From Zootoca vivipara (Eukaryota): DNA of 64,000 nt. The notes under the pieces were generated by a model that saw only the letters and a program-made list of their open reading frames with translations, was not told where the DNA came from and made no database searches. This document shows positions 44,452 to 63,946 of the stretch, piece after piece. A program made the translations under genes and the position numbers. The stretch lies in contig NC_083277.1 of the NCBI RefSeq assembly GCF_963506605.1, positions 8,060,001-8,124,000 of the forward strand. Reading direction: 5' to 3'. The stretch's first letter is position 1. Each line of letters opens with the position of its first letter.

Positions 44452-44672
44452 AAAAGTGAAAAGGAAGCATTTGAATGAAAATGTTACAGTTATGAATAGT
44501 AAGCTAGGTGTATGTGTGTTTGTTTGTAATGAAAAACATGGGAAACAATCCAGAAGCATTCGCTGCTCCTTGAGAAAACATTCAGCAGCTGCAAACGCCT
44601 GGGGACATTTTTTTAAAAAAAAGAGAGGATAAAGGACACGTGATCACTGAGTCATTTCCGGAAAAGGAAACC
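44452..44672 (+). promoter_or_regulatory. TRIM copy 1 putative promoter: IRF-E-like, E-box, AP-1, ISRE
   Basis: AAAAGTGAAAAGG at 44452, CACGTG at 44637, TGAGTCA at 44648, GAAAAGGAAAC at 44661. Confidence 0.55.
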
Positions 44673-44730
44673 CTCAGTGGCTGAAAACTGGGAAGGCGGA
44701 ACTTAACTCGGTTTTTGGCACGAGGGAGGC

Positions 44731-45162
44731 ATGGCTGCTGCAAGGGGTCACATCCAGCGTCTATGTGATGAAGCCACGTGCTGCATCTGCCGGGATTATT
44801 TCAAGGATCCAGTGACCAGCCCAGAGTGTGGGCACAACTTCTGCCGATCCTGCCTGATCTATTGCTGGGGGAGATCGGAGGCAGAGGTTTCCTGCCCTCA
44901 GTGCAGAAAAGCAGTTCTGAGAAGGAGCCTTATCCGCAACCGGCAACTGGCTAACGTGGTAGAAATAGCCAAGAATCTCTGCCTTCAAGCGGGAAAGGAG
45001 GAAGGGGAAAAATGGAGGTGGAGAATCTGCGAAGATCACCAGGAGCCCCTGAAGCTCTTCTGCATAGTCCACGAAGACCCCATCTGCGTGGTGTGTGACA
45101 AATCAAAGGAACATGAAAATCACAAGGTGATTCCTCTGGAGGAGGCTTTCGAGGAATACAAG
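44731..45162 (+). CDS. TRIM copy 1 exon 1 (RING C3HC4 + B-box 2); TRIM27/RFP- or TRIM39-like E3 ligase, 483 aa over 7 coding exons ending at 54025
   Basis: LCDEATCCICRDYFKDPV...CGHNFCRSC...CPQC (RING) and CEDHQEPLKLFC...ICVVC...HENH (B-box). Donor AAG|GTAGGA. Confidence 0.92.
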
Positions 45163-45530
45163 GTAGGAGATCCCTGGATCTTGATGTGGAGAAATAGCTG
45201 TAGATTCTTCTTGGGAGGTTTTATTTTTAATTCTCAGGTCCAAAGCAGACATGGCATGAATTGGTGGTGGTTTATTATGTAAAAGGCAGCCAAGGGGAAG
45301 CCTGAGGGTTCCTGGATTGACTGAGAGGAGGGAGTTGAAGTCTTTCTGCCAAGGGGACAAAGGGATCTCTCTCCATGCCCCTGAGTAGCATCTGCAAAGA
45401 CTAAGTAGAAGTCTGTAAGCAGGGGGGGAAACTGGGTCCCTGAGCCCCATAGGGGTGCCACAGAAAAAAGGTAGCTGATCCAGGGAGTCATGGACACAAA
45501 AAGGTTGAAAACCTCTGGACTTTTATTTCC

Positions 45531-45890
45531 TCATTACCAAACTTAAAACCATGCAGAGATCTGGCCTGAATAGAGACATTGGATTCTTATCTCATTATAC
45601 ATGATAAAGCTGTTTTTAGCCATCTCACCCCTTGCTTTTTCCTGCAAGACCAATTGCAGTCGTTAACAGTCCTCAACAGGTTTGCCACACCTATCAGCCA
45701 ATCACCCATTCCCACCACCCTTCTGAGTAATACCCCTCCCCATCCTCTCACTATATATAAGGGTCCGGTGACTTCTGTTTCAGTGTATCTGAAGAAGTGT
45801 GCATGCACACAAAAGCTCATACCAATGACAAACTTAGTTGGTTGGTATCTAAGGTGCTAATGGAATGAATTTTTTTACTTTGTTTCGACT
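45531..45890 (+). mobile_element. Penelope-like element 3' fragment in TRIM copy 1 intron 1
   Basis: Encodes ...ITKLKTMQRSGLNRDIGFLSHYT* (end of a Penelope-type ORF), then the CTGAAGAAGTGTGCATGCACAC tail. Absent from copy 2. Confidence 0.7.
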
Positions 45891-46013
45891 CCAGTAAAGT
45901 ACAGTACTTTGCTATTACACTATAGCAAGGCCACTGGTCGCAAGAAACCAGCATACTATTCATCTTGTCTCTGTGTGTCTTAATCAAACTTGAGTTTTCC
46001 CTTTTCTCTTTAG

Positions 46014-46109
46014 GGAGAGATCTGTCGCCGCCTGGAGATTCTGAGGGGAGAGAGAGAGGAAATTCTGGCCTATCAAGCAGACCTGGACAGAAAGAGCAAA
46101 TACATCCTT
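46014..46109 (+). CDS. TRIM copy 1 exon 2 (coiled coil, 96 nt)
   Basis: Bounded by TTTAG and GTAAGT. Length of 96 nt is typical of B30.2-TRIM genes. Frame is open. Confidence 0.85.
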
Positions 46110-47013
46110 GTAAGTGTCACTATTGTTACTAGACAGGGGGAAAGCACTTGAAGAATCGAGTCAGGACTGAGGAGGGTTGGGGAAATCTGCCCATTTCAGC
46201 TTCTCCCCAATTCTCATTTTTCCATATCAGTCTGTTTATTAATGTATTATTCAGAAAATGAATCAGATGTTAGGGTAGCTACCTTCTTGTATAAATATTT
46301 TGATCTGTACTTTACCCTCATGAATACATTTTTTGTGAATATTACCTGGCTGGGTCAACCTTGAAAATATTAGAGGTGTGAATTTCAATGAAATGCAGCT
46401 AGATTGAGTTTATTTCCCCTTGTCATTTATTACGTGAATAGCAGTCAAGGAGAAGCCTGAGGAATTGTGAGCTGAGAAGGTGGAAGCAATTCAATTCAAA
46501 TCATGATTTACCATAAATATTACCAGTACTATAGGATTGTCTTTCTAAAAGTGTGCTTTCTTCATTTTTAGGAAACTCAGGCCATTTTGAACCTTTAAAG
46601 AAAACAGGGGAGCTATGGGGATGAACTCTGCACTTAGTCATCATCCTCCTCTTTCTGTTGCCTTCCTACACCTAAATGGCTCCAGTCTAAACTGAGGGGT
46701 GTTTTATGTCCATTGATGTTCTCTGGACAACTATGAACTCTGGTAATGCCATGCTCCAAAACATGCAGGAAATATCCGTGGCTAGGAAAAAAGCTGCTTG
46801 CTTTTTAGGCAGTAGCCCTCTGCAGAATAGAAGTCAACAGAAAGAGCAATGGAGAGGGCCGTCCCACAGAATAAATGTTTACATCTTTAGCCACTGGAGG
46901 TTTCATGTCTCTGAAAAATCAGAAGTGTCCTCCCTGTGGGAATTCTCACAATTCTCTTCCTGGTGTTTTGAAGGCTGACCATCTTCCACACTCAAACCTC
47001 CCCTTTTTTGCAG

Positions 47014-47244
47014 AAATTAACAGAAACGGAGAGGCTGAAGACTGTGGAGAAGTTCAAAGAACTGCACCAGTTCCCGGAAGAACAGGAAAAACATCGGCTG
47101 AATCATGTGGAAGAGGTGGAGAAGGAGATTGCAAGGAGAAGGGATGAGCAGCTGGCCAGACTCTCCAGGAAACTCTCCTCTCTTGAGAAGATCATACAGG
47201 AGATGGAGGAAAAGAGGCAGCAGCCAGCGAGTGAACTCCTGCAG
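47014..47244 (+). CDS. TRIM copy 1 exon 3 (coiled coil, 231 nt)
   Basis: Bounded by TTTGCAG and GTAAGA. KLTETERLKTVEKFKELHQF...EMEEKRQQPASELLQ. Confidence 0.9.
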
Positions 47245-48060
47245 GTAAGACGGTGGCAGGAACAGCCCAAGGCTCCAGGAAAAGGCTGCCTCCAATCCTT
47301 TCTGTGCCCCTTTCATGTATGCAAGGAGTGCAGGGGCTCAGTTGATGGAGCCTCTAGTCAGGTTTGTAATGGACAGGAAGACCCAAGAGACCTGGGATGC
47401 TTAACTCACCTGAATGCAGACTAGAGATTCTTCTGTGGTCTTGATGGAACTGGAGGTGGTCTTCTGCTCTTTGCTTGTGATTTGTGTCCGAATGCCTTCC
47501 CACTTGGCAACGCTGCCTTCCTTCCCTTGAGGGGCTGGGCTTCGCCAAGGATGCATTCAGGCCTCTTTCCGACATGAGCCAATCTCTTGACCAAGCTTCT
47601 CTTCCCGTTCTCTCCACAACCTCTGGGTTGATCCAATTCCCCATGGATACAGATCGGCCCAAAATGGTGCTCAGTCACAGTGACCAAAGAGCCAGACAGA
47701 GGGATTCATCCAGACTGCTGCTTGTCCCACCCCTTTCCTCCAGGAAAATCCACTGTTTGCTGCTGTTTTAGAGCAAACATCTGCCAGGTTTTCTCCAGAT
47801 TGACGTTTGCTTCGATGTTGCAGTAAGGAGCAGGCTTCTCATGAGGGAAAGTGGCAGGGCAAAGGCAAAACCCTTTGCCCCTGTGTTTTCTGGGCACAGG
47901 AAAAGCAGAAGTGTGGATGAGCCCAAAGAAACACTGAGGTGTTTGGATTTGAAATTTGGGGACTTCTATGGAAGTGCTTTTCCTCCACTCCAGGGTCTGA
48001 GGGGGTCTTCGTAGTGTGGCCTGTGGTGTGCAGTGAATTCCCTTCTCTTTTCCCCTCTAG

Positions 48061-48083
48061 GATGTGAGAAGAACCTTTCAGAG
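48061..48083 (+). CDS. TRIM copy 1 exon 4 (23-nt mini-exon)
   Basis: CCCCTCTAG|GATGTGAGAAGAACCTTTCAGAG|GTAAGT, the usual 23-nt DVR-type TRIM exon. Confidence 0.85.
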
Positions 48084-48894
48084 GTAAGTGGATCTGGCTC
48101 CTTTGCATTACCATCTCTCCATGAGGCCGTGATGCAAGAACCTCAAACATGGCCCTCCAGGGGCTGCAGGGGGGAGACTGTAGGACTCACTCCCTGCAGC
48201 ATCTCACAGGTAAAACAGGCCCCCCTCTTTGGAACTTGTAGCATCCCAATTCTCCCCATGAATTAGCGCTATTTCCTTTGTGAGGTTTGGTTTTACTTTT
48301 GCAATGTGTATAATTTGTTTTGTATTGGCCTGAATGTCCTTTTGATTAATCATTTGATTTGGTTGTGCACCTGTGGAAGATCTGTCTCATCTTCTGCAAA
48401 CATCTGATTCTAGAGCAGAGGTTAGCTAATATATCAAAGCCAGGGATCCATAAGCTCCAGAAACAAATATTTTGAGTTTACTCAAGTGTCACTTAAAGTG
48501 TCACTCATGTTCAGAGTAGAGGTTTTAAGGAACATTTCATGTTTCCCAACAGAAGTGAATCTCTGTTTCTTCCTCACAACTTCTCTGGGGACATCTAGAA
48601 AAAGGAAATGTGTGCTGTGCTGTCCTCACCCTCAGGCAGTTCCTGCCCTTTGATACCATATGATTCTGCTTCTTCTTTGAATAGACATCAGTGGGGAGAC
48701 TCAGAGGCCTGGGGTTGCTGTTTTGGCCCTTGGGGGTCTGGCTGAGGAGTCCGTAGTGAGGAAGAAACTCCCCACTCAGTGCCTGCCTGTCCTTCTAGGC
48801 TTTCCACAACCAGCCTCGTCCTCTCAGCTCCTTTCTTTTCCTTTAACAGAAATTGTGGATTTGAATGGGCTGACATTGTTATTCTTTTCACCAG

Positions 48895-49013
48895 GTATGA
48901 GAAAAGAGAGAGACCAGAGAAGCCACTGCTTTTCTCTCCAGAACTGAGGAACAGGATCTTGGAATCCTGTGAACTAAATCACCTTGTGGAGGATGCAATG
49001 AAACAATGGAAAG
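48895..49013 (+). CDS. TRIM copy 1 exon 5 (119 nt)
   Basis: Bounded by TTTTCACCAG and GTAATG. YEKRERPEKPLLFSPELRNRILE...MKQWK. Phase is consistent. Confidence 0.85.
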
Positions 49014-50083
49014 GTAATGAAAAATGGCTGCCAGGATTTCACACTGAGAATTCCATTTCTACCTTCAGAACTGAACATGCCAGGCTCTTATTGCATGGAA
49101 TTGAGGAACCCCAGGATAGCTTCCTTCTCGGTGCTCCAGCCTTCATTTCCTGTCCCCCAGAATGGTCCATGTACATTGTGACGCTGGAGCTTGTAAAGAA
49201 AGCCTGAACAAGAATGTAGAGCAAAGTCAGGATTGTTTCCACCCATGTGCATCTGTCTTCAGTTATACAGAACCTCCTTTTCCTTTTGGTTACCAGTCTA
49301 CACAATCTGGGGTTGTCCTTTTGGAGGTTCTCCTGCTCTGAATGGAGTCAAAGAGGCATTAAGAAGCCCCCAGTTCCTCCTCTGCTTCCTGCTCAGGCTT
49401 GTTTCTCAGCCGTGGAGCCAAGGCCTGAGCTGTCTCCTCCTCAGACGTCCCCCTGCAGCTGCCATATCTAGGGCTTCATCCTTCAAGAGCTCCTGAGAGT
49501 TCCCACATTGAGAGTGGAAGCAAGAGCACATGAGCCCCAAAGGGCACAATTCTGCTTGTTAACATCCTTAAAGATGTGTAGAAGGTTTGTGAGGAAGGAC
49601 TTGCCTTTGCGTGAGAGCTCTGCCAATCCTTCCTCATCAACCTTCACTTCTCTTTTATATTTCACAGTTATGGCTTTAATAATTTTCCCCACCACGTTAC
49701 TTGGGAAGATGTTAAGGCTGCCTCCATCTCCCCCTCTTTATCCTTTTACAGGATTCCTATTGCCCTGCCTCCCCTCCAGTCCAGGAATGTAGAGCCCAAT
49801 TTCAGGGACAAAGTTCAGAGACCCTCAGGGTTCATGTTGAATGTTTTTATTCTGTTATTTGTAAGCTTGCTTTATGATTGCTGAATTTTAAAGCTTTAGT
49901 TATTTTCATAGATTCTTCCTATGATTTTCTTGTTTTTAATTATTTTTTTGTACAATTTAATTAATACTTAATAATTGTACTTGAATTTAACGATTCCAAG
50001 TTATGAAGTGTTATTTTTGTATGGAGATTTATTTCTGGTGGAAGCGTGTTGCCCTTACACTTTATATCTTTTTGCTTCCTCAG

Positions 50084-50116
50084 ATGCTCTGTTATACAGA
50101 AAACCGATTCAGAAAG
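50084..50116 (+). CDS. TRIM copy 1 exon 6 (33 nt)
   Basis: TTCCTCAG|ATGCTCTG...CAGAAAG|GTAAAT encodes DALLYRKPIQK, phase 1-1. Confidence 0.75.
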
Positions 50117-51902
50117 GTAAATTTCCAAGGGAAGAACAATTTCACAGGAGGGATGGGGACTGATATTTCATGGGTGTTGAACCGTCTGTTCCGCAGACGT
50201 TGGGACCCCCATCAATTTTGTAACTCTGGGTAACAGTCCTCTAGTGGTGTTTCGGTTCTTTGAATGCCCCATGAATGAACTGGGAGAGGGTTTGAAGGCT
50301 TGGATTTGGGGCAGAGCTTGTCCCTGCAAAGAAACTGCACACCAGACTGAGTTCTACTCCTACCTATAGACTGTTATCCTGGTTTCCCCCTTAATTTTAT
50401 AGATTTTTCTTTCTTTCATAAATTTATATATTGCTTGATTGTAGGGAAAAGTCTCAGAGCCTTACAATATCTTACAAAAGCCCTTAAAGAGAATCCTGCA
50501 GGGTCAGTCCAATGTCCCTCTTGTCGAGTTCTCATGTATACGGAACTTCCCTTGCATTTTGTTTTCCCTCTACACAATCGGGAGAGATTCTTTTGGAGCT
50601 TCTCGAGATTTGTTTGAATTTCCCCCTTGTGAAGTGTGTTAAAAAGGGCACCCACAAGCACTTAGTCCCTCCTCCACCTCCTGCCAGGCTGGTCTCCCAG
50701 CAGCAGAGCCAAGGCCTGATCCGCCTCTTCCTCAGAGTTTCAACCTCACCAGCCATTTCTCGTGCTTCAGCCATCCCAATCTCCTGAGAGTTGCCACAGT
50801 TCTCATGAGATCAGCCCCATTCCACAAGGGAGGACTTCCCATTGCACGAGACCCTTGGAATTACAGTACAATGCTCTGCCGATTCTTCCTCTGCAGTCTG
50901 GTTTGTCAGCATGCTTGGAAATTCCAGTTTCAACAGCTTTTCCCCACCAGTTTACTTGGGGCAGATGTTAAACCTTCCTCCAGCCCTCCAGTTCAGATCC
51001 CCATTTTATTCGTTGATTTTGAATGATTGTATTTTGCCATTTTCTAGTATGGTTTACCATTTCTGAGTTTGAAAGGATCCCAAGGATCATCTAGTCCAAC
51101 CCCCTGCGATGCAGGAATTACAGCTAAACATGTTAACTGTTTTAATTCCTTAGGCCTAGTGATATTAAATTCTTGAGAATAATCTTTTGGAGAATATTTA
51201 ACACCACTGCTTAGGCTTACAGTTGTCGCCTTTGCAGTTATTTGTTCTATGATTTCATCTTTTGCTTGAAATAAGGAAACAACAGGTGCTTATTTTATGG
51301 GTATGTCTTATTTTCGGGGAAACAGGATAGGTTGGCATGAGTCCATTAGACTCTGATCTAAGGCACCCGGCTAAGCTAGTTTGCAGCAGAGAATCTCAAC
51401 AGAGCAGCATCTTAAGCAAGTGACATAATGTATAAAACTCTTTTCCTGTGGCTGAACTAAAAGGACGCTGGTTCAGCTACAAGATCTTGGAGAAGGAGTC
51501 TGGGAGGGCAAGAGTTAACATCCCCCTGCCCTTAAGGAGAGCCCATACGCAGATGTTAAACAGTTTAATCAATTGTTCTGCGCACACTTACGTTCACAAA
51601 GAGGTGAACATGAACCCAAATACTTTCATGTGGCAAGCGAGGGAGCAATATGTATTATTATCATTCTTTTGTTGTTGAAAGTTAAGAGCATTGCTACTAG
51701 CAATATATCACAGCTTCTATAGCCTACATAAAGTAGGGGTGTTTAAAATGAGTGTAATAGAAATCCATGGTTAAAAGTAGAAGTTGGCAGATGTGTCCTC
51801 TTTTCTGCTCTTCAAAATATGGCAATCCTACACTTGCCGACTTAGCCCCTAACTGGTAACCTTTTGAGTTATCTCCCCCCTTTCCCCCAGGAAGGGAACT
51901 AG

Positions 51903-52884
51903 TCTTCTATATATATAAAAATGTAAAAGGGTCTGTGTGTGTGCGTTGACCTTTCGCCACAACCGCTTGACCGATTACGTTCAAATTTGGACACAACGTC
52001 AAATGAGAATGTCTAACACCATGCCCATTGGGAAGACAGATGTGACACCTCCACAACGTAAAACCTCCAAAACCTGGTCATTTGGAACCCTCAAAACACA
52101 CAGCCGGGGGAGCTGGGAAATAGAAGCCAAAGCTGAGGCTAAGAGTGCCAAAAATTGACGTCATCACCCGAGCAAATGAAAGCAGCAAAACGGCCATTAT
52201 CAGACAAAGGCAAAACGGCCAAAGCAACAGCCACAGCCACAACCCACAACCCCAGGCACCGTCCCTGACGAGGCAACCCACCACTGACACAACCGCCGCT
52301 GCCGCCACCACCATCAAAAACCCAAATCTCAACACACCAAAGGAAAAAACCCCACAACCGCAGCCGCCACCGACTACACAGAACAGACCTTGCCACAGGT
52401 ATAAACACCCCCTCTCCCAAAAAACCGCTCCCACCAAAAATGCCACAACTATCGAAACCCACACCCACAAAAACCCACAGCGGACTCCGTTCGACCCCTC
52501 CGACACAACCACAGTCACAACGTAACCCACCAACAGCTCAACCACCCCTGCCGCAGCAAAAGGGGGGGGGAATCACAGGGAGGAACCACAACAACCTGAA
52601 CCACAGACACCATGTCCCCTGCCACCCGCGCGACCAGCCCCCCCCCCCCAAACCCTGCTGCCACCCCCACCGCCTCCACTAAAGGTTGGGGAAAATCACA
52701 GGGAGGAACATCAGCAACACGGCCGAACCCACCACGTCCCCCGCCACTGACGCGACCCCCCCCCCCCCGAAAAAACAAGGAACAGTGAACAAACTCTGCT
52801 GGCACCCCCACCTCCACGACCCCTGCAAAAGGGTGGTAGGAATCACAGGGAGGAGCCACAGCAATGTGTGGCCGGGACAGCTAG
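51903..52884 (+). mobile_element. Non-autonomous Helitron-like element in TRIM copy 1 intron 6
   Basis: 5' TCTTCTATATATATAAAA. 3' hairpin GCCACA-gcaatg-TGTGGC (52855-52872), 8 nt before CTAG|T. No TSD seen. Confidence 0.75.
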
Positions 52885-53507
52885 TATGGTATATATTAAA
52901 TCCAAAAGAGAAGCATGGAATAAGCAGTCCTTTGAAAAATTGCCCTGCCACCTGCCTCCTCTTCCCTGGCGGCAAGCCCTACACTTCCAAAATGAGGAGG
53001 AAGGCACAGAAGAGACCAAGTTGGTGAGGGAGCTGGAGGGCAGGAATAAACAGGCTCCCCTCTTCTTCCTTCTTTCTTTCTTGTTCCAGGGGAGTCCCCC
53101 ACCCCGAGGTCCCTAAAGGCCAATTCCCACAGATATTGTCAGAGGAAAGCAGCTTCTCTCCTCTCCTGCCTCCTCCAATTCTCCTCTCTTTCCCCTTCAC
53201 TAACACAGAAGAGCTGAGTAAAAGGTTTCCTGGGTGGTTTTTCCTCTTAGAAAATGCCTGGGTTGAGAGGAGGGCAGGAAGAATACACACTGAATATAAG
53301 AAAGTGAAGGAAATTGATTTAAAAACCAACAAGGAAGATGAGAGTCTGCAAGGAGTCTCAGTCTTGCATGCGATGCAAATAAATCCCATTCATCTGAAGG
53401 TGAATCTGGATTTCTCAGGTGCTTTTTTTGTTTTTTTCAGGATGTCCGTTTCTGTCTCTCAGTTCACTCTGCCTAATTTTCTCTTTCCCTCATCATCGTT
53501 CCCACAG

Positions 53508-54025
53508 CAAATGTGACTCTGGATCCAGACACAGCCCATCCCAGGCTCATCGTGTCCGAGGATCGGAAAAGCGTAAGATGGGAAAACGAAAAGCAAGACC
53601 TGCCCAACAATCCTGAGAGATTCAGCAACTTGTCCTGTGTGTTGGGACGTGAGGGATTCATAGCAGGCAGACATTTCTGGGAAGTCAATGTGGAACGTGG
53701 GGAAGAGTGGAGTGTGGGGGTCGCCAGGAAGTCTGTGAAGAGAAAGGGCTGCTTCTCCTTAAGCCCTAAAGATGGGGTCTGGGATGTGGGGAAGTCTGGA
53801 GGCAAGTACTATGCCTGCACACCCCCTTCTTCCTCTCCTCTATTCCTGAGTTGGGAGCCCAGGAGGATCCGGGTGACTCTGGACTATGAAGGGAGACGTG
53901 TGTCTTTTTCTGACGCTGACTCAGGAGCCAAACTCTACGCCTTCTCAGGAGCCTCATTCTCTGGAGAGACCCTCCTCCCTTTCTTTTATCTGTGGAGAAA
54001 TGAAACCCACCTCAGTATCTCCTGA
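53508..54025 (+). CDS. TRIM copy 1 exon 7 (PRY-SPRY/B30.2 domain)
   Basis: ANVTLDPDTAHPRLIVSEDRKSV...GRHFWEV...WSVGVA...IRVTLDYEGRRVSF...PFF. Acceptor CCCACAG. AATAAA at 54209. Confidence 0.95.
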
Positions 54026-60389: not shown

Positions 60390-61006
60390 GTCCAACCCCC
60401 TGCAATGCAGGAATCTCTTGCCCAACGTGGGACTTGAACCCGTGATCCTGTGATTAAGAGTCTCATGCTCTACTGTCTCAGGAATAGCTTCCTGTCTATA
60501 AACCTGGAGAGCTGATGCCAGTCATTGTTGACCACACTGAACTAGGTGGAGGATGATAATGATGATGATTTATTTATAACTGGGCAGTGCGGCCATATGC
60601 TCCACCACTGGATGGGAATTGTAGTCTGAAGCAAACAGAGGGCACCAGGTTGGCAATGCTGAAAGCATCTGTTTCAATCATAAGTTCTTTTCCAGCATGC
60701 TAAAAACGAATTAAGTTAGAATTAGCAACCAGACTTTTAGGAGTTCACTTCACAGAATCAAGTCCCGTTTGCTAAATCAGAACCCCCGTCCATTTAGGGC
60801 AGAGTCAGATTTTCTCCAATTCAAAAATGACAAGGAAGCCTTCGAATGAAAATGTTGCAGTATGAATAAGACAGCTTACTAGGTATGTGTGTGTTTGTGT
60901 GTAATGAAAAACAAGGGAAGCAATAACAAAAGCATTCGCTGCTCCTTGAGAAAACATTCAGCAACTGCAAAGACCTGGGGACATTTTTTTAAAAAAGAAA
61001 GATAAA

Positions 61007-61063
61007 GATCACGTGATCACTGAGTCATTTCCGGGAAAGGAAGCTCTTCCGGGAAAGGAAACT
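61007..61063 (+). promoter_or_regulatory. TRIM copy 2 putative promoter: E-box, AP-1, two GAS sites, Ets-IRF composite
   Basis: GATCACGTGATC at 61007, TGAGTCA at 61021, TTCCGGGAA at 61029 and 61047, GGAAAGGAAACT at 61052. Confidence 0.55.
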
Positions 61064-61105
61064 GTGAAAACTGGGAAGGCGGAACTTAACTCGTGTGAGG
61101 GAGCC

Positions 61106-61570
61106 ATGGCTGCTTCTGGGGATCTCATCCAGCGTCTCCGTGATGAAGCCACGTGCTGCATCTGCCGGGATTATTTCAAGGATCCAGTGACCATCGCAGA
61201 GTGTGGCCACAACTTCTGCCGGTCCTGCCTGACCCATTGCTGGGGGGAATCGGAGGCAGAGGCTTCCTGCCCTCAGTGCAGAAAAACAGTGCAAAGAAGT
61301 GGCCTCATCCCCAACCGGCAGCTGGCTAACGTGGTAGAAATAGCCAAGAATCCCAGCCTTCAAGAGGGAAAGGGAGAAGGAGGGGGGGAAGGGAGAGTGT
61401 GCGAAGAGGCCGAGGGAAAGGGAGAAGGAGGAGTCTGCGAGGAGCACAAGGAACCCCTGATGCTCTTCTGCAAAGTCCACGAAGCCCCCATCTGTCTGTT
61501 GTGTGACAAATCAAAGGAACATGCAAATCACAAGGTGATTCCTCTGGAGGAGGCTTTCGAGGAATACAAG
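61106..61570 (+). CDS. TRIM copy 2 exon 1 (RING + B-box)
   Basis: GCCATGG Kozak start. Paralogue of 44731-45162. Donor AAG|GTAGGA. Confidence 0.92.
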
Positions 61571-62044: not shown

Positions 62045-62140
62045 GGAGAGATCTGTCACCGCCTGGATATTCTGAGGAAAGAGAGAGAGGAAATTCTGGC
62101 CTATCAAGAAGATCTGGTCAAGAAAAGCAAAGATCTTCTT
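62045..62140 (+). CDS. TRIM copy 2 exon 2 (96 nt)
   Basis: Bounded by TTTCAG and GTAAGC. Paralogue of 46014-46109. Confidence 0.85.
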
Positions 62141-63715: not shown

Positions 63716-63946
63716 AAATTAACAGAAATGCAGAGGCTGAGGACTGTGGAGAATTTCAAAGAACTGCGCCGGTTCCTGGAAGAACAAGAAAAACGTCTGC
63801 TGAATCATGTGGAAGAGGTGGAGAAGGAGATTGCAGGGAGAAGGAATGAGCAGCTGGCCAAACTCTCCAGCAATCTCTCCTTTCTTGAGAGGATCATCCA
63901 GGAGATGGAGGAAAAGTGTCAGCAGCCAGCGAGTGAACTCCTGCAG
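63716..63946 (+). CDS. TRIM copy 2 exon 3 (231 nt); gene continues beyond the window
   Basis: Bounded by TTGTAG and GTAAGA. Paralogue of 47014-47244. Confidence 0.9.

What the first reader, a model, noticed from the sequence alone, without database searches (positions are those of the whole stretch)
61007..61063. A single-base difference plus an 18-bp duplication give TRIM copy 2 tandem GAS and Ets-IRF sites instead of the ISRE
Seen: copy 1 reads TTCCGGAAAAGGAAAC. Copy 2 reads TTCCGGGAAAGGAA twice at 18-bp spacing (61029 and 61047). The A/G difference trades the canonical ISRE for a perfect GAS (TTCN3GAA) overlapping a GGAANNGAAA Ets-IRF composite, and the GAS is doubled. Established: tandem GAS sites support cooperative STAT binding. 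Inference: the duplicates may be partitioned between type I IFN/IRF and IFN-gamma or cytokine-STAT responses.
Basis: partly seen in the sequence, partly recalled or inferred. Interest (0 to 1): 0.7.

Follow-up and report, generated by a model that had tools for sequence, protein, structure and literature searches.

The report
Doubled STAT site in TRIM promoter
One of about 40 sister immune (TRIM) genes carries a real 18-base duplication that doubles a STAT-type site most of its sisters already have once, which likely tunes its interferon response rather than creating a new kind of switch.

Summary
The 18-bp duplication is in the assembly and in contigs of 3 of 3 DNA samples laid, and in 1 of 40 paralogous promoters. 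But GAS is the family state (29 of 32 core promoters), so copy 1 lost it; copy 2 did not gain it. The GGAANNGAAA match is also family-wide (25 of 32) and lies only in the second repeat unit. The family's canonical ISRE sits 36 bp further downstream and is replaced in BOTH copies by a GC-rich module. That module is found in 8 of 32 promoters, does not form one clade, and goes with a CG-centred GAS (7 of 8 vs 0 of 21), likely through short gene-conversion tracts. A STAT1-leaning copy 2 is plausible, a clean IFN-I versus IFN-gamma split is not supported, and no binding or induction was tested.

The parts
61010..61015 (+). E-box CACGTG (family cassette, copy 2)
   Evidence: sequence; shared by most paralogues; name recalled
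61021..61027 (+). AP-1/TRE site TGAGTCA abutting the first GAS
   Evidence: sequence; family-wide; name recalled
61029..61046 (+). Repeat unit 1: GAS TTCCGGGAA (61029-61037) followed by AGGAAGC; IRF half-site GAAAC changed to GAAGC
61047..61064 (+). Repeat unit 2: GAS TTCCGGGAA (61047-61055) overlapping GGAAAGGAAACT (61052-61063; EICE pattern and one-base-spacer ISRE type); CT indel polymorphism behind 61061
61066..61085 (+). GAAAACT plus GC-rich module GGGAAGGCGGAAC, in the position of the family's canonical ISRE GAGAAAGYGAAAC
61106..61570 (+). TRIM copy 2 exon 1 (RING, B-box); 7-exon model gives an open 494-aa RING-B-box-coiled coil-PRY/SPRY frame ending beyond the window
   Evidence: copy-2-specific RNA pieces
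62045..62140 (+). TRIM copy 2 exon 2
   Evidence: AG/GT ends; spliced joint in reads of the family
63716..63946 (+). TRIM copy 2 exon 3
44648..44672 (+). Copy 1 cassette: AP-1 site, then TTCCGGAAA (GAS lost by G>A at 44662) overlapping GGAAAAGGAAACC (44660-44672; two-base-spacer ISRE / EIRE pattern)
44683..44702 (+). Copy 1 GC-rich module replacing the canonical downstream ISRE, identical to copy 2's
44731..54022 (+). TRIM copy 1 gene, 7-exon model, open 483-aa frame

Best explanation
A local 18-bp duplication doubles a STAT site (GAS) that most sister TRIM promoters carry once, and it likely lets two STAT1 dimers bind side by side at a promoter whose canonical ISRE is replaced by a GC-rich module. 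Shown: the family cassette is E-box, AP-1, GAS overlapping a one-base-spacer IRF site, 8-bp spacer, canonical ISRE, then the ATG about 30 bp on; both window copies lack the canonical ISRE; copy 1 lacks the GAS through one G>A change that lengthens the overlapping IRF site to a two-base-spacer ISRE; copy 2 has the GAS twice. Inferred: the cassette is the proximal promoter; the ancestral promoter was a GAS+ISRE composite answering both interferons; the GC-rich module moved between paralogues by short gene-conversion tracts; the duplication arose by slippage after copy 2 split from L002. Predicted: copy 2 depends more on STAT1 homodimers (strong early response to IFN-gamma-type or other STAT cytokines, but also some response to type I IFN), copy 1 more on IRF/ISGF3: a quantitative shift, not an on/off partition.
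For: Duplication real and in 3 of 3 samples, unique among 40 promoters. GAS in 29 of 32 core promoters and in 3 of 5 distant paralogues; canonical ISRE exact in 15 and with 1-2 mismatches in 6 of 32, GAS-to-ISRE distance unchanged in 21 of 21, which points to a constrained cassette. Same overlapped GAS/ISRE layout is listed for human IFI35 and PARP14, and PARP14's overlapped site worked in reporters (PMC10287828 passages and Table S4). 18 bp lies within the 18-21 bp STAT1 range (PMC2897888 passages) and is 1 bp shorter than the standard tetramer probe (PMC4284922 passages). Both genes have open frames; copy-2-specific RNA pieces (0-1 differences; nearest paralogue 4-12) in 3 of 3 contig runs guessed to be RNA. 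Depth is zero over 61032-61085 in 4 of 4 runs and about 1 read over 60924-61031 against 22-120 in exon 1, fitting a start just downstream of the cassette. Related squamate TRIMs are interferon-induced and STAT1 signalling works in iguana cells (PMC12262214 parts 1-2).
Against: No binding or induction data for this promoter. The 18-21 bp enrichment is only moderate and 18 bp is its edge; 18 bp is a trough for STAT5 tetramers (PMC4990345 passages). Spacing changes occur in 3 of 8 promoters that lost the ISRE and 0 of 21 that kept it (p 0.015; 0.056 if L001+L002 count once), equally readable as relaxed constraint. Unit 1 has already diverged in its IRF half-site and the 3' edge is polymorphic. 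In the two raw-read runs copy 2 is rare (1 of 48 and 12 of 321 laid reads at 99+% likeness; about 6% of each run read, tissue and state unknown). Two retrocopies include the whole cassette, so some transcripts start upstream of it. Mammalian motif rules are applied to a reptile.
Confidence: 0.5

Rival explanations
1. Neutral turnover: once the canonical ISRE was replaced the cassette was freed from spacing constraint, and the duplication and copy 1's G>A change are slippage and drift with little effect on expression.
For: Indels in the spacer only in ISRE-less promoters (3 of 8 vs 0 of 21); a segregating CT indel at the unit edge; units differ at 1 of 18 bases; 18 bp is not a peak spacing; the four changes marking the ISRE-less type are all A>G, as GC-biased conversion would favour (recalled).
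Against: Both 9-bp GAS cores are intact in 3 of 3 samples; three neighbours (L001, L002, L005) each ended with a stronger GAS or ISRE pattern, not a decayed one; both reading frames are open.
Confidence: 0.33
2. One reading: copy 1 answers type I IFN through ISGF3/IRF and copy 2 answers IFN-gamma or IL-6-type cytokines through STAT tetramers, with little overlap (subfunctionalisation of an ancestral composite).
For: Ancestral cassette holds both elements; copy 1 keeps only an ISRE-type site identical to PLSCR1's; copy 2 has two GAS; in human composite promoters the GAS left alone leaned to IFN-gamma and the ISRE left alone to IFN-alpha.
Against: Those same mutants still answered both interferons; copy 2 keeps a one-base-spacer site one base from the DDX58 ISRE; copy 1's site ends ACC, not the IRF9-favoured ACT, and fits the IRF3-leaning EIRE; 21 other paralogues keep both elements, so no two-gene complementarity is needed; the best tree pairs copy 2 with L002.
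Confidence: 0.1
3. The purine-rich repeat works mainly through ETS-family or other constitutive factors (GGAA cores in both units and two more in the GC-rich module), giving lineage or basal expression rather than STAT induction.
For: Four GGAA cores lie within 61035-61084; unit 1's change makes AGGAAG; EICE-type sites are bound by PU.1-IRF8 in myeloid cells.
Against: The GGAA inside each GAS is preceded by G, a poor ETS flank (recalled); the TTC half of the GAS is conserved in 29 of 32 paralogues, which ETS binding alone would not need.
Confidence: 0.07

Closest known systems
GAS+ISRE composite ISG promoters (human IFI35, PARP14, TRIM69; PMC10287828)
   Same: The family cassette has a GAS overlapping an IRF site plus a separate ISRE; copy 1's site equals the PLSCR1 ISRE, copy 2's second unit is one base from the DDX58 ISRE.
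   Different: Here the cassette exists in about 30 paralogous versions with different elements lost or doubled; none is tested.
Tandem GAS / STAT1 tetramer sites (MER41B 21 bp; 2xGAS probe 19 bp; PMC2897888, PMC4284922)
   Same: Two full TTCN3GAA sites in direct repeat within the 18-21 bp range.
   Different: 18 bp is the short edge for STAT1 and a trough for STAT5 (PMC4990345); origin is local slippage, not a transposon.
Reptile MHC-linked C-IV TRIM expansions (67 genes in fence lizard; PMC10445537)
   Same: RING, B-box, PRY/SPRY; cluster of at least 38 loci at C2:6.3-12.1 Mb next to MHC class I at 4.7-6.1 Mb.
   Different: Orthology to named genes not tested; promoters were not described in the passages read.
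harbingerTRIMs (PMC12262214)
   Same: Squamate interferon-induced TRIMs with gene conversion among paralogues.
   Different: 0-5 paralogues at a Harbinger locus that the paper treats as separate from the MHC TRIMs; conversion reported there is in PRY-SPRY coding sequence, not promoters; membership not tested.

Membership tests
GAS element | TTCN3GAA | tested here: met
   61029 and 61047; copy 1 TTCCGGAAA does not match
STAT1 tandem (tetramer) site | two GAS at a tolerated centre spacing (18-21 bp enriched) | tested here: met
   18 bp against PMC2897888
STAT1 tandem (tetramer) site | cooperative binding of two dimers | not testable with these tools
   needs EMSA/ChIP
STAT5 tetramer site | centre spacing near 15-16, 20-21 or 25-26 bp | tested here: not met
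   18 bp is a trough in PMC4990345
Tandem EICE | GGAANNGAAA in both units | tested here: not met
   only unit 2 matches
Canonical ISRE, copy 1 | GAAANNGAAA | tested here: met
   44661; 13-mer identical to PLSCR1 ISRE
Canonical ISRE, copy 1 | IRF9/ISGF3-favoured 3' end GAAACT | tested here: not met
   ends GAAACC against PMC6954429 section 19
Canonical ISRE, copy 2 | GAAANNGAAA within 170 bp of the ATG | tested here: not met
   none; a one-base-spacer site is present
GAS+ISRE composite ISG promoter (family cassette) | GAS and ISRE close together near the start | tested here: met
   21 of 32 core promoters hold both, 36 bp apart
GAS+ISRE composite ISG promoter (family cassette) | induction by both interferons | not testable with these tools
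   no treated samples at hand
Subfunctionalised duplicate pair | the two genes are sisters | tested here: inconclusive
   best tree L001+L002 99/93; L001+L005 not rejected, p-AU 0.19
Subfunctionalised duplicate pair | complementary loss of ancestral elements | tested here: not met
   both lost the same downstream ISRE; copy 2 lost nothing that copy 1 kept
MHC-linked C-IV TRIM | RING, B-box, PRY/SPRY and position beside MHC class I | tested here: met
harbingerTRIM | orthology and Harbinger-linked locus | not tested
   no sequence comparison made

The most novel reading that the evidence does not exclude
The TRIM array keeps two interchangeable promoter states, ISRE-on and a GC-rich ISRE-off module, that are swapped between paralogues by gene-conversion tracts of a few dozen bases; ISRE-off genes then re-wire under selection (copy 2 doubles the GAS, copy 1 and L002 each make a new ISRE-type site), so that conversion shuffles inducibility across an antiviral gene family independently of protein sequence.
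Probability: 0.2. Interest if true: 0.62.

Novelty: new member of a known kind. Interest (0 to 1): 0.32.

Why it matters
As it stands it is one more case of interferon-element turnover in a duplicated immune gene family. Its value is as a natural allelic series: about 30 nearly identical promoters differing by single elements (GAS+ISRE, GAS only, doubled GAS, ISRE only) make the grammar of reptile interferon responses directly testable, and would show whether gene conversion moves regulation as well as coding sequence among antiviral TRIMs.

Tried and rejected
Assembly artefact: rejected. Pseudogene for either copy: rejected at frame level (one search was a first try with wrong exon edges). 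'GAS gained by copy 2': rejected. Single origin of the GC-rich module by whole-gene descent: rejected on exon 1 (29 rows; L022, L026, L028 left out; p-AU 2.8e-5) and intron 1 (27 rows; L025, L033 also left out; p-AU 2.8e-5); both trees are poorly resolved and the coding region may itself be converted. An extra genome match to the GC-rich module (C2:8.50 Mb) has no cassette or TRIM start beside it; dropped. Run search: no RNA holder listed, no evidence either way. IFN-gamma Pfam search found nothing, controls also blank: uninformative. No earlier scan findings. Literature searches for the same case listed no paper on ISRE/GAS turnover in reptile TRIM promoters; the library lacks most subscription papers, and supplements of PMC12262214 (iguana ISG table) were not read and may bear on whether this cluster is interferon-induced. 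No position-weight scoring was done (no matrices at hand); only consensus patterns. Offsets printed are off by one (ATG is 61106). Helical-phase idea (+10, -10, -11 shifts) is weakened by the CT allele (+12) and left as a remark.

Full report
Observation. Pairwise alignment shows the rest of the cassette identical between the copies, and a net +10 bp in copy 2, since the duplication comes with loss of an 8-bp spacer. Two TTCN3GAA within 30 bp arose in 3 of 2000 shuffles, and the doubled pattern has 2 matches genome-wide. Contigs from 3 of 3 DNA runs (three samples, two studies) span both units; one equals the window, two add CT behind 61061, which completes unit 2 to a full 18-mer. Contigs show presence, not absence, so fixation is not shown.

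Context. Both genes are RING-B-box-PRY/SPRY TRIMs with open 483- and 494-aa frames under 7-exon AG/GT models. MHC class I genes lie at C2:4.7-6.1 Mb and the paralogues at 6.3-12.1 Mb, matching the reptile MHC-linked TRIM expansions described in PMC10445537 (passages).

One search gave 41 matches from 40 of 81 candidates scored, so counts are lower bounds; I examined 40 distinct loci (one duplicate and one second fragment dropped) and of them core (dropped: L032, L034, L035, which lack the cassette, and five distant genes L036-L040). The shared cassette is E-box, AP-1, TTCCNGGAA running into AGGAAAC, spacer, GAAAACT, then GAGAAAGYGAAAC about 30 bp before the ATG. TTCN3GAA is present in 29 of 32 core and 32 of all 40 promoters, GGAANNGAAA in 25 of 32, a doubled GAS in 1 of 40. 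The distant genes have both a GAS (3 of 5) and the downstream ISRE (5 of 5), so the composite is the likely ancestral state. Copy 1's A is therefore a loss of GAS; it turns the overlapping one-base-spacer site into a two-base-spacer site identical to the PLSCR1 ISRE in Table S4 of PMC10287828 (supplement) and fitting the EIRE pattern (PMC6954429 section 19). Copy 2's second unit is the unchanged family element, one base from the DDX58 ISRE; the first unit has lost the IRF half-site.

The canonical downstream ISRE is exact in 15 and near-exact in 6 of 32 promoters, lost in 3, and replaced in 8, including both window copies, by GGGAAGGCGGAAC or a near variant. Seven of these 8 have TTCCG at the GAS against 0 of 21 ISRE promoters (Fisher 5e-6, not corrected for kinship). 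The 8 do not form one clade on exon 1 or intron 1 (p-AU about 3e-5 each), and sister promoters L012/L013 share private spacer variants yet differ by the module alone. Short gene-conversion tracts are the likely cause (inference); GC-biased conversion would explain spread without selection, all four marker changes being A>G. GAS-to-ISRE distance is unchanged in 21 of 21 ISRE promoters (two read by hand) but altered in 3 of 8 module promoters. Three neighbours then differ in different ways: copy 2 doubled the GAS, copy 1 made an ISRE-type site by substitution, L002 made GAAATTGAAA by deletion. This fits compensation or relaxation equally.

Is it the promoter, and is copy 2 used? In 4 of 4 runs laid at 86% likeness there is no depth over 61032-61085, and about one read over 60924-61031, against strong exon-1 depth and spliced joints; indels may hide some paralogue reads, and contigs cannot show a start. 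Pieces with 0-1 differences from copy 2 and 4-12 from the nearest paralogue occur in 3 of 3 contig runs guessed to be RNA, so copy 2 is likely transcribed. In raw reads it is minor (1 of 48, 12 of 321). Two intronless retrocopies carry the whole cassette, with 5' ends about 185 and 210 bp before the ATG, and L025 reads run through it, so upstream starts also exist.

Mechanism. Shown: motif content and its history at pattern level. From literature: STAT1 forms competition-resistant tetramers on a probe with a 10-bp gap (PMC4284922 passages; ours is 9); induced STAT1 tandems outside repeats are moderately enriched at 18-21 bp (PMC2897888 passages); 18 bp is a trough for STAT5 (PMC4990345 passages); human composite promoters with either element removed still answer both interferons, with a lean (PMC10287828 passages); iguana cells have STAT1-dependent ISGs including TRIMs (PMC12262214, parts 1-2 of 4). 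Inferred: copy 2 leans on STAT1 homodimers, copy 1 on IRF/ISGF3, as a graded shift (0.5). Rivals: neutral turnover after ISRE loss (0.33), strict partition (0.1), ETS-driven basal role (0.07). Names of E-box, AP-1 and ETS flank rules are recalled.

Novelty and verdict. Tandem GAS, overlapped GAS/ISRE composites and reptile TRIM expansions are all known; this is a new instance. My searches listed no description of this promoter series. Interest 0.32; the boldest reading, conversion-driven swapping of ISRE-on and ISRE-off states with secondary re-wiring, has probability about 0.2 and would merit about 0.6.

Noticed in passing
L022 / L046 (G000:C4:35.25 Mb): Intronless retrocopy with an open frame of about 494 aa, polyA signal, A-run and likely target-site duplication; it carries the GAS+ISRE cassette, so it may be an inducible retrogene. 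A spliced joint in DNA run X2 fits such retrocopies.
   Followed up: partly
L045 (G000:C6:7.38 Mb): Second, decayed retrocopy that also includes the cassette from about 185 bp before the ATG.
   Followed up: partly
L025 (G000:C2:8.92 Mb): Upstream of the GAS it has different DNA with several CCAAT boxes; its reads dominate run X21 and extend about 100 nt or more through the cassette, suggesting an upstream promoter.
   Followed up: partly
L016, L019 (G000:C2:6.67-6.72 Mb): Upstream of about -210 they have CCAAT and GC-box-like sequence unlike copy 2; the retrocopy L022 shares their 5' part.
   Followed up: no
window 61061: CT indel polymorphism at the 3' edge of repeat unit 2 in 2 of 3 samples.
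   Followed up: partly
L012 vs L013; L006 vs L007: Close paralogues that differ by the ISRE versus GC-rich module: candidate micro-conversion events.
   Followed up: partly
window 47071 and 63773: A GAS-pattern 9-mer sits inside coding exon 3 of both copies; probably coding constraint.
   Followed up: no
window 12357-40176: Several C2H2 zinc-finger and SCAN-like reading frames on the minus strand lie just upstream of the TRIM pair; part of the 40-46 kb region is duplicated at 56-62 kb.
   Followed up: no
L020, L026, L028, L035: Paralogues with a stop or truncation in exon 1; L020, L026 and L028 still keep GAS and ISRE.
   Followed up: no
L044 (G000:C5:49.81 Mb): An unrelated 25-bp tandem duplication also makes two TTCCGGGAA sites.
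   Followed up: no
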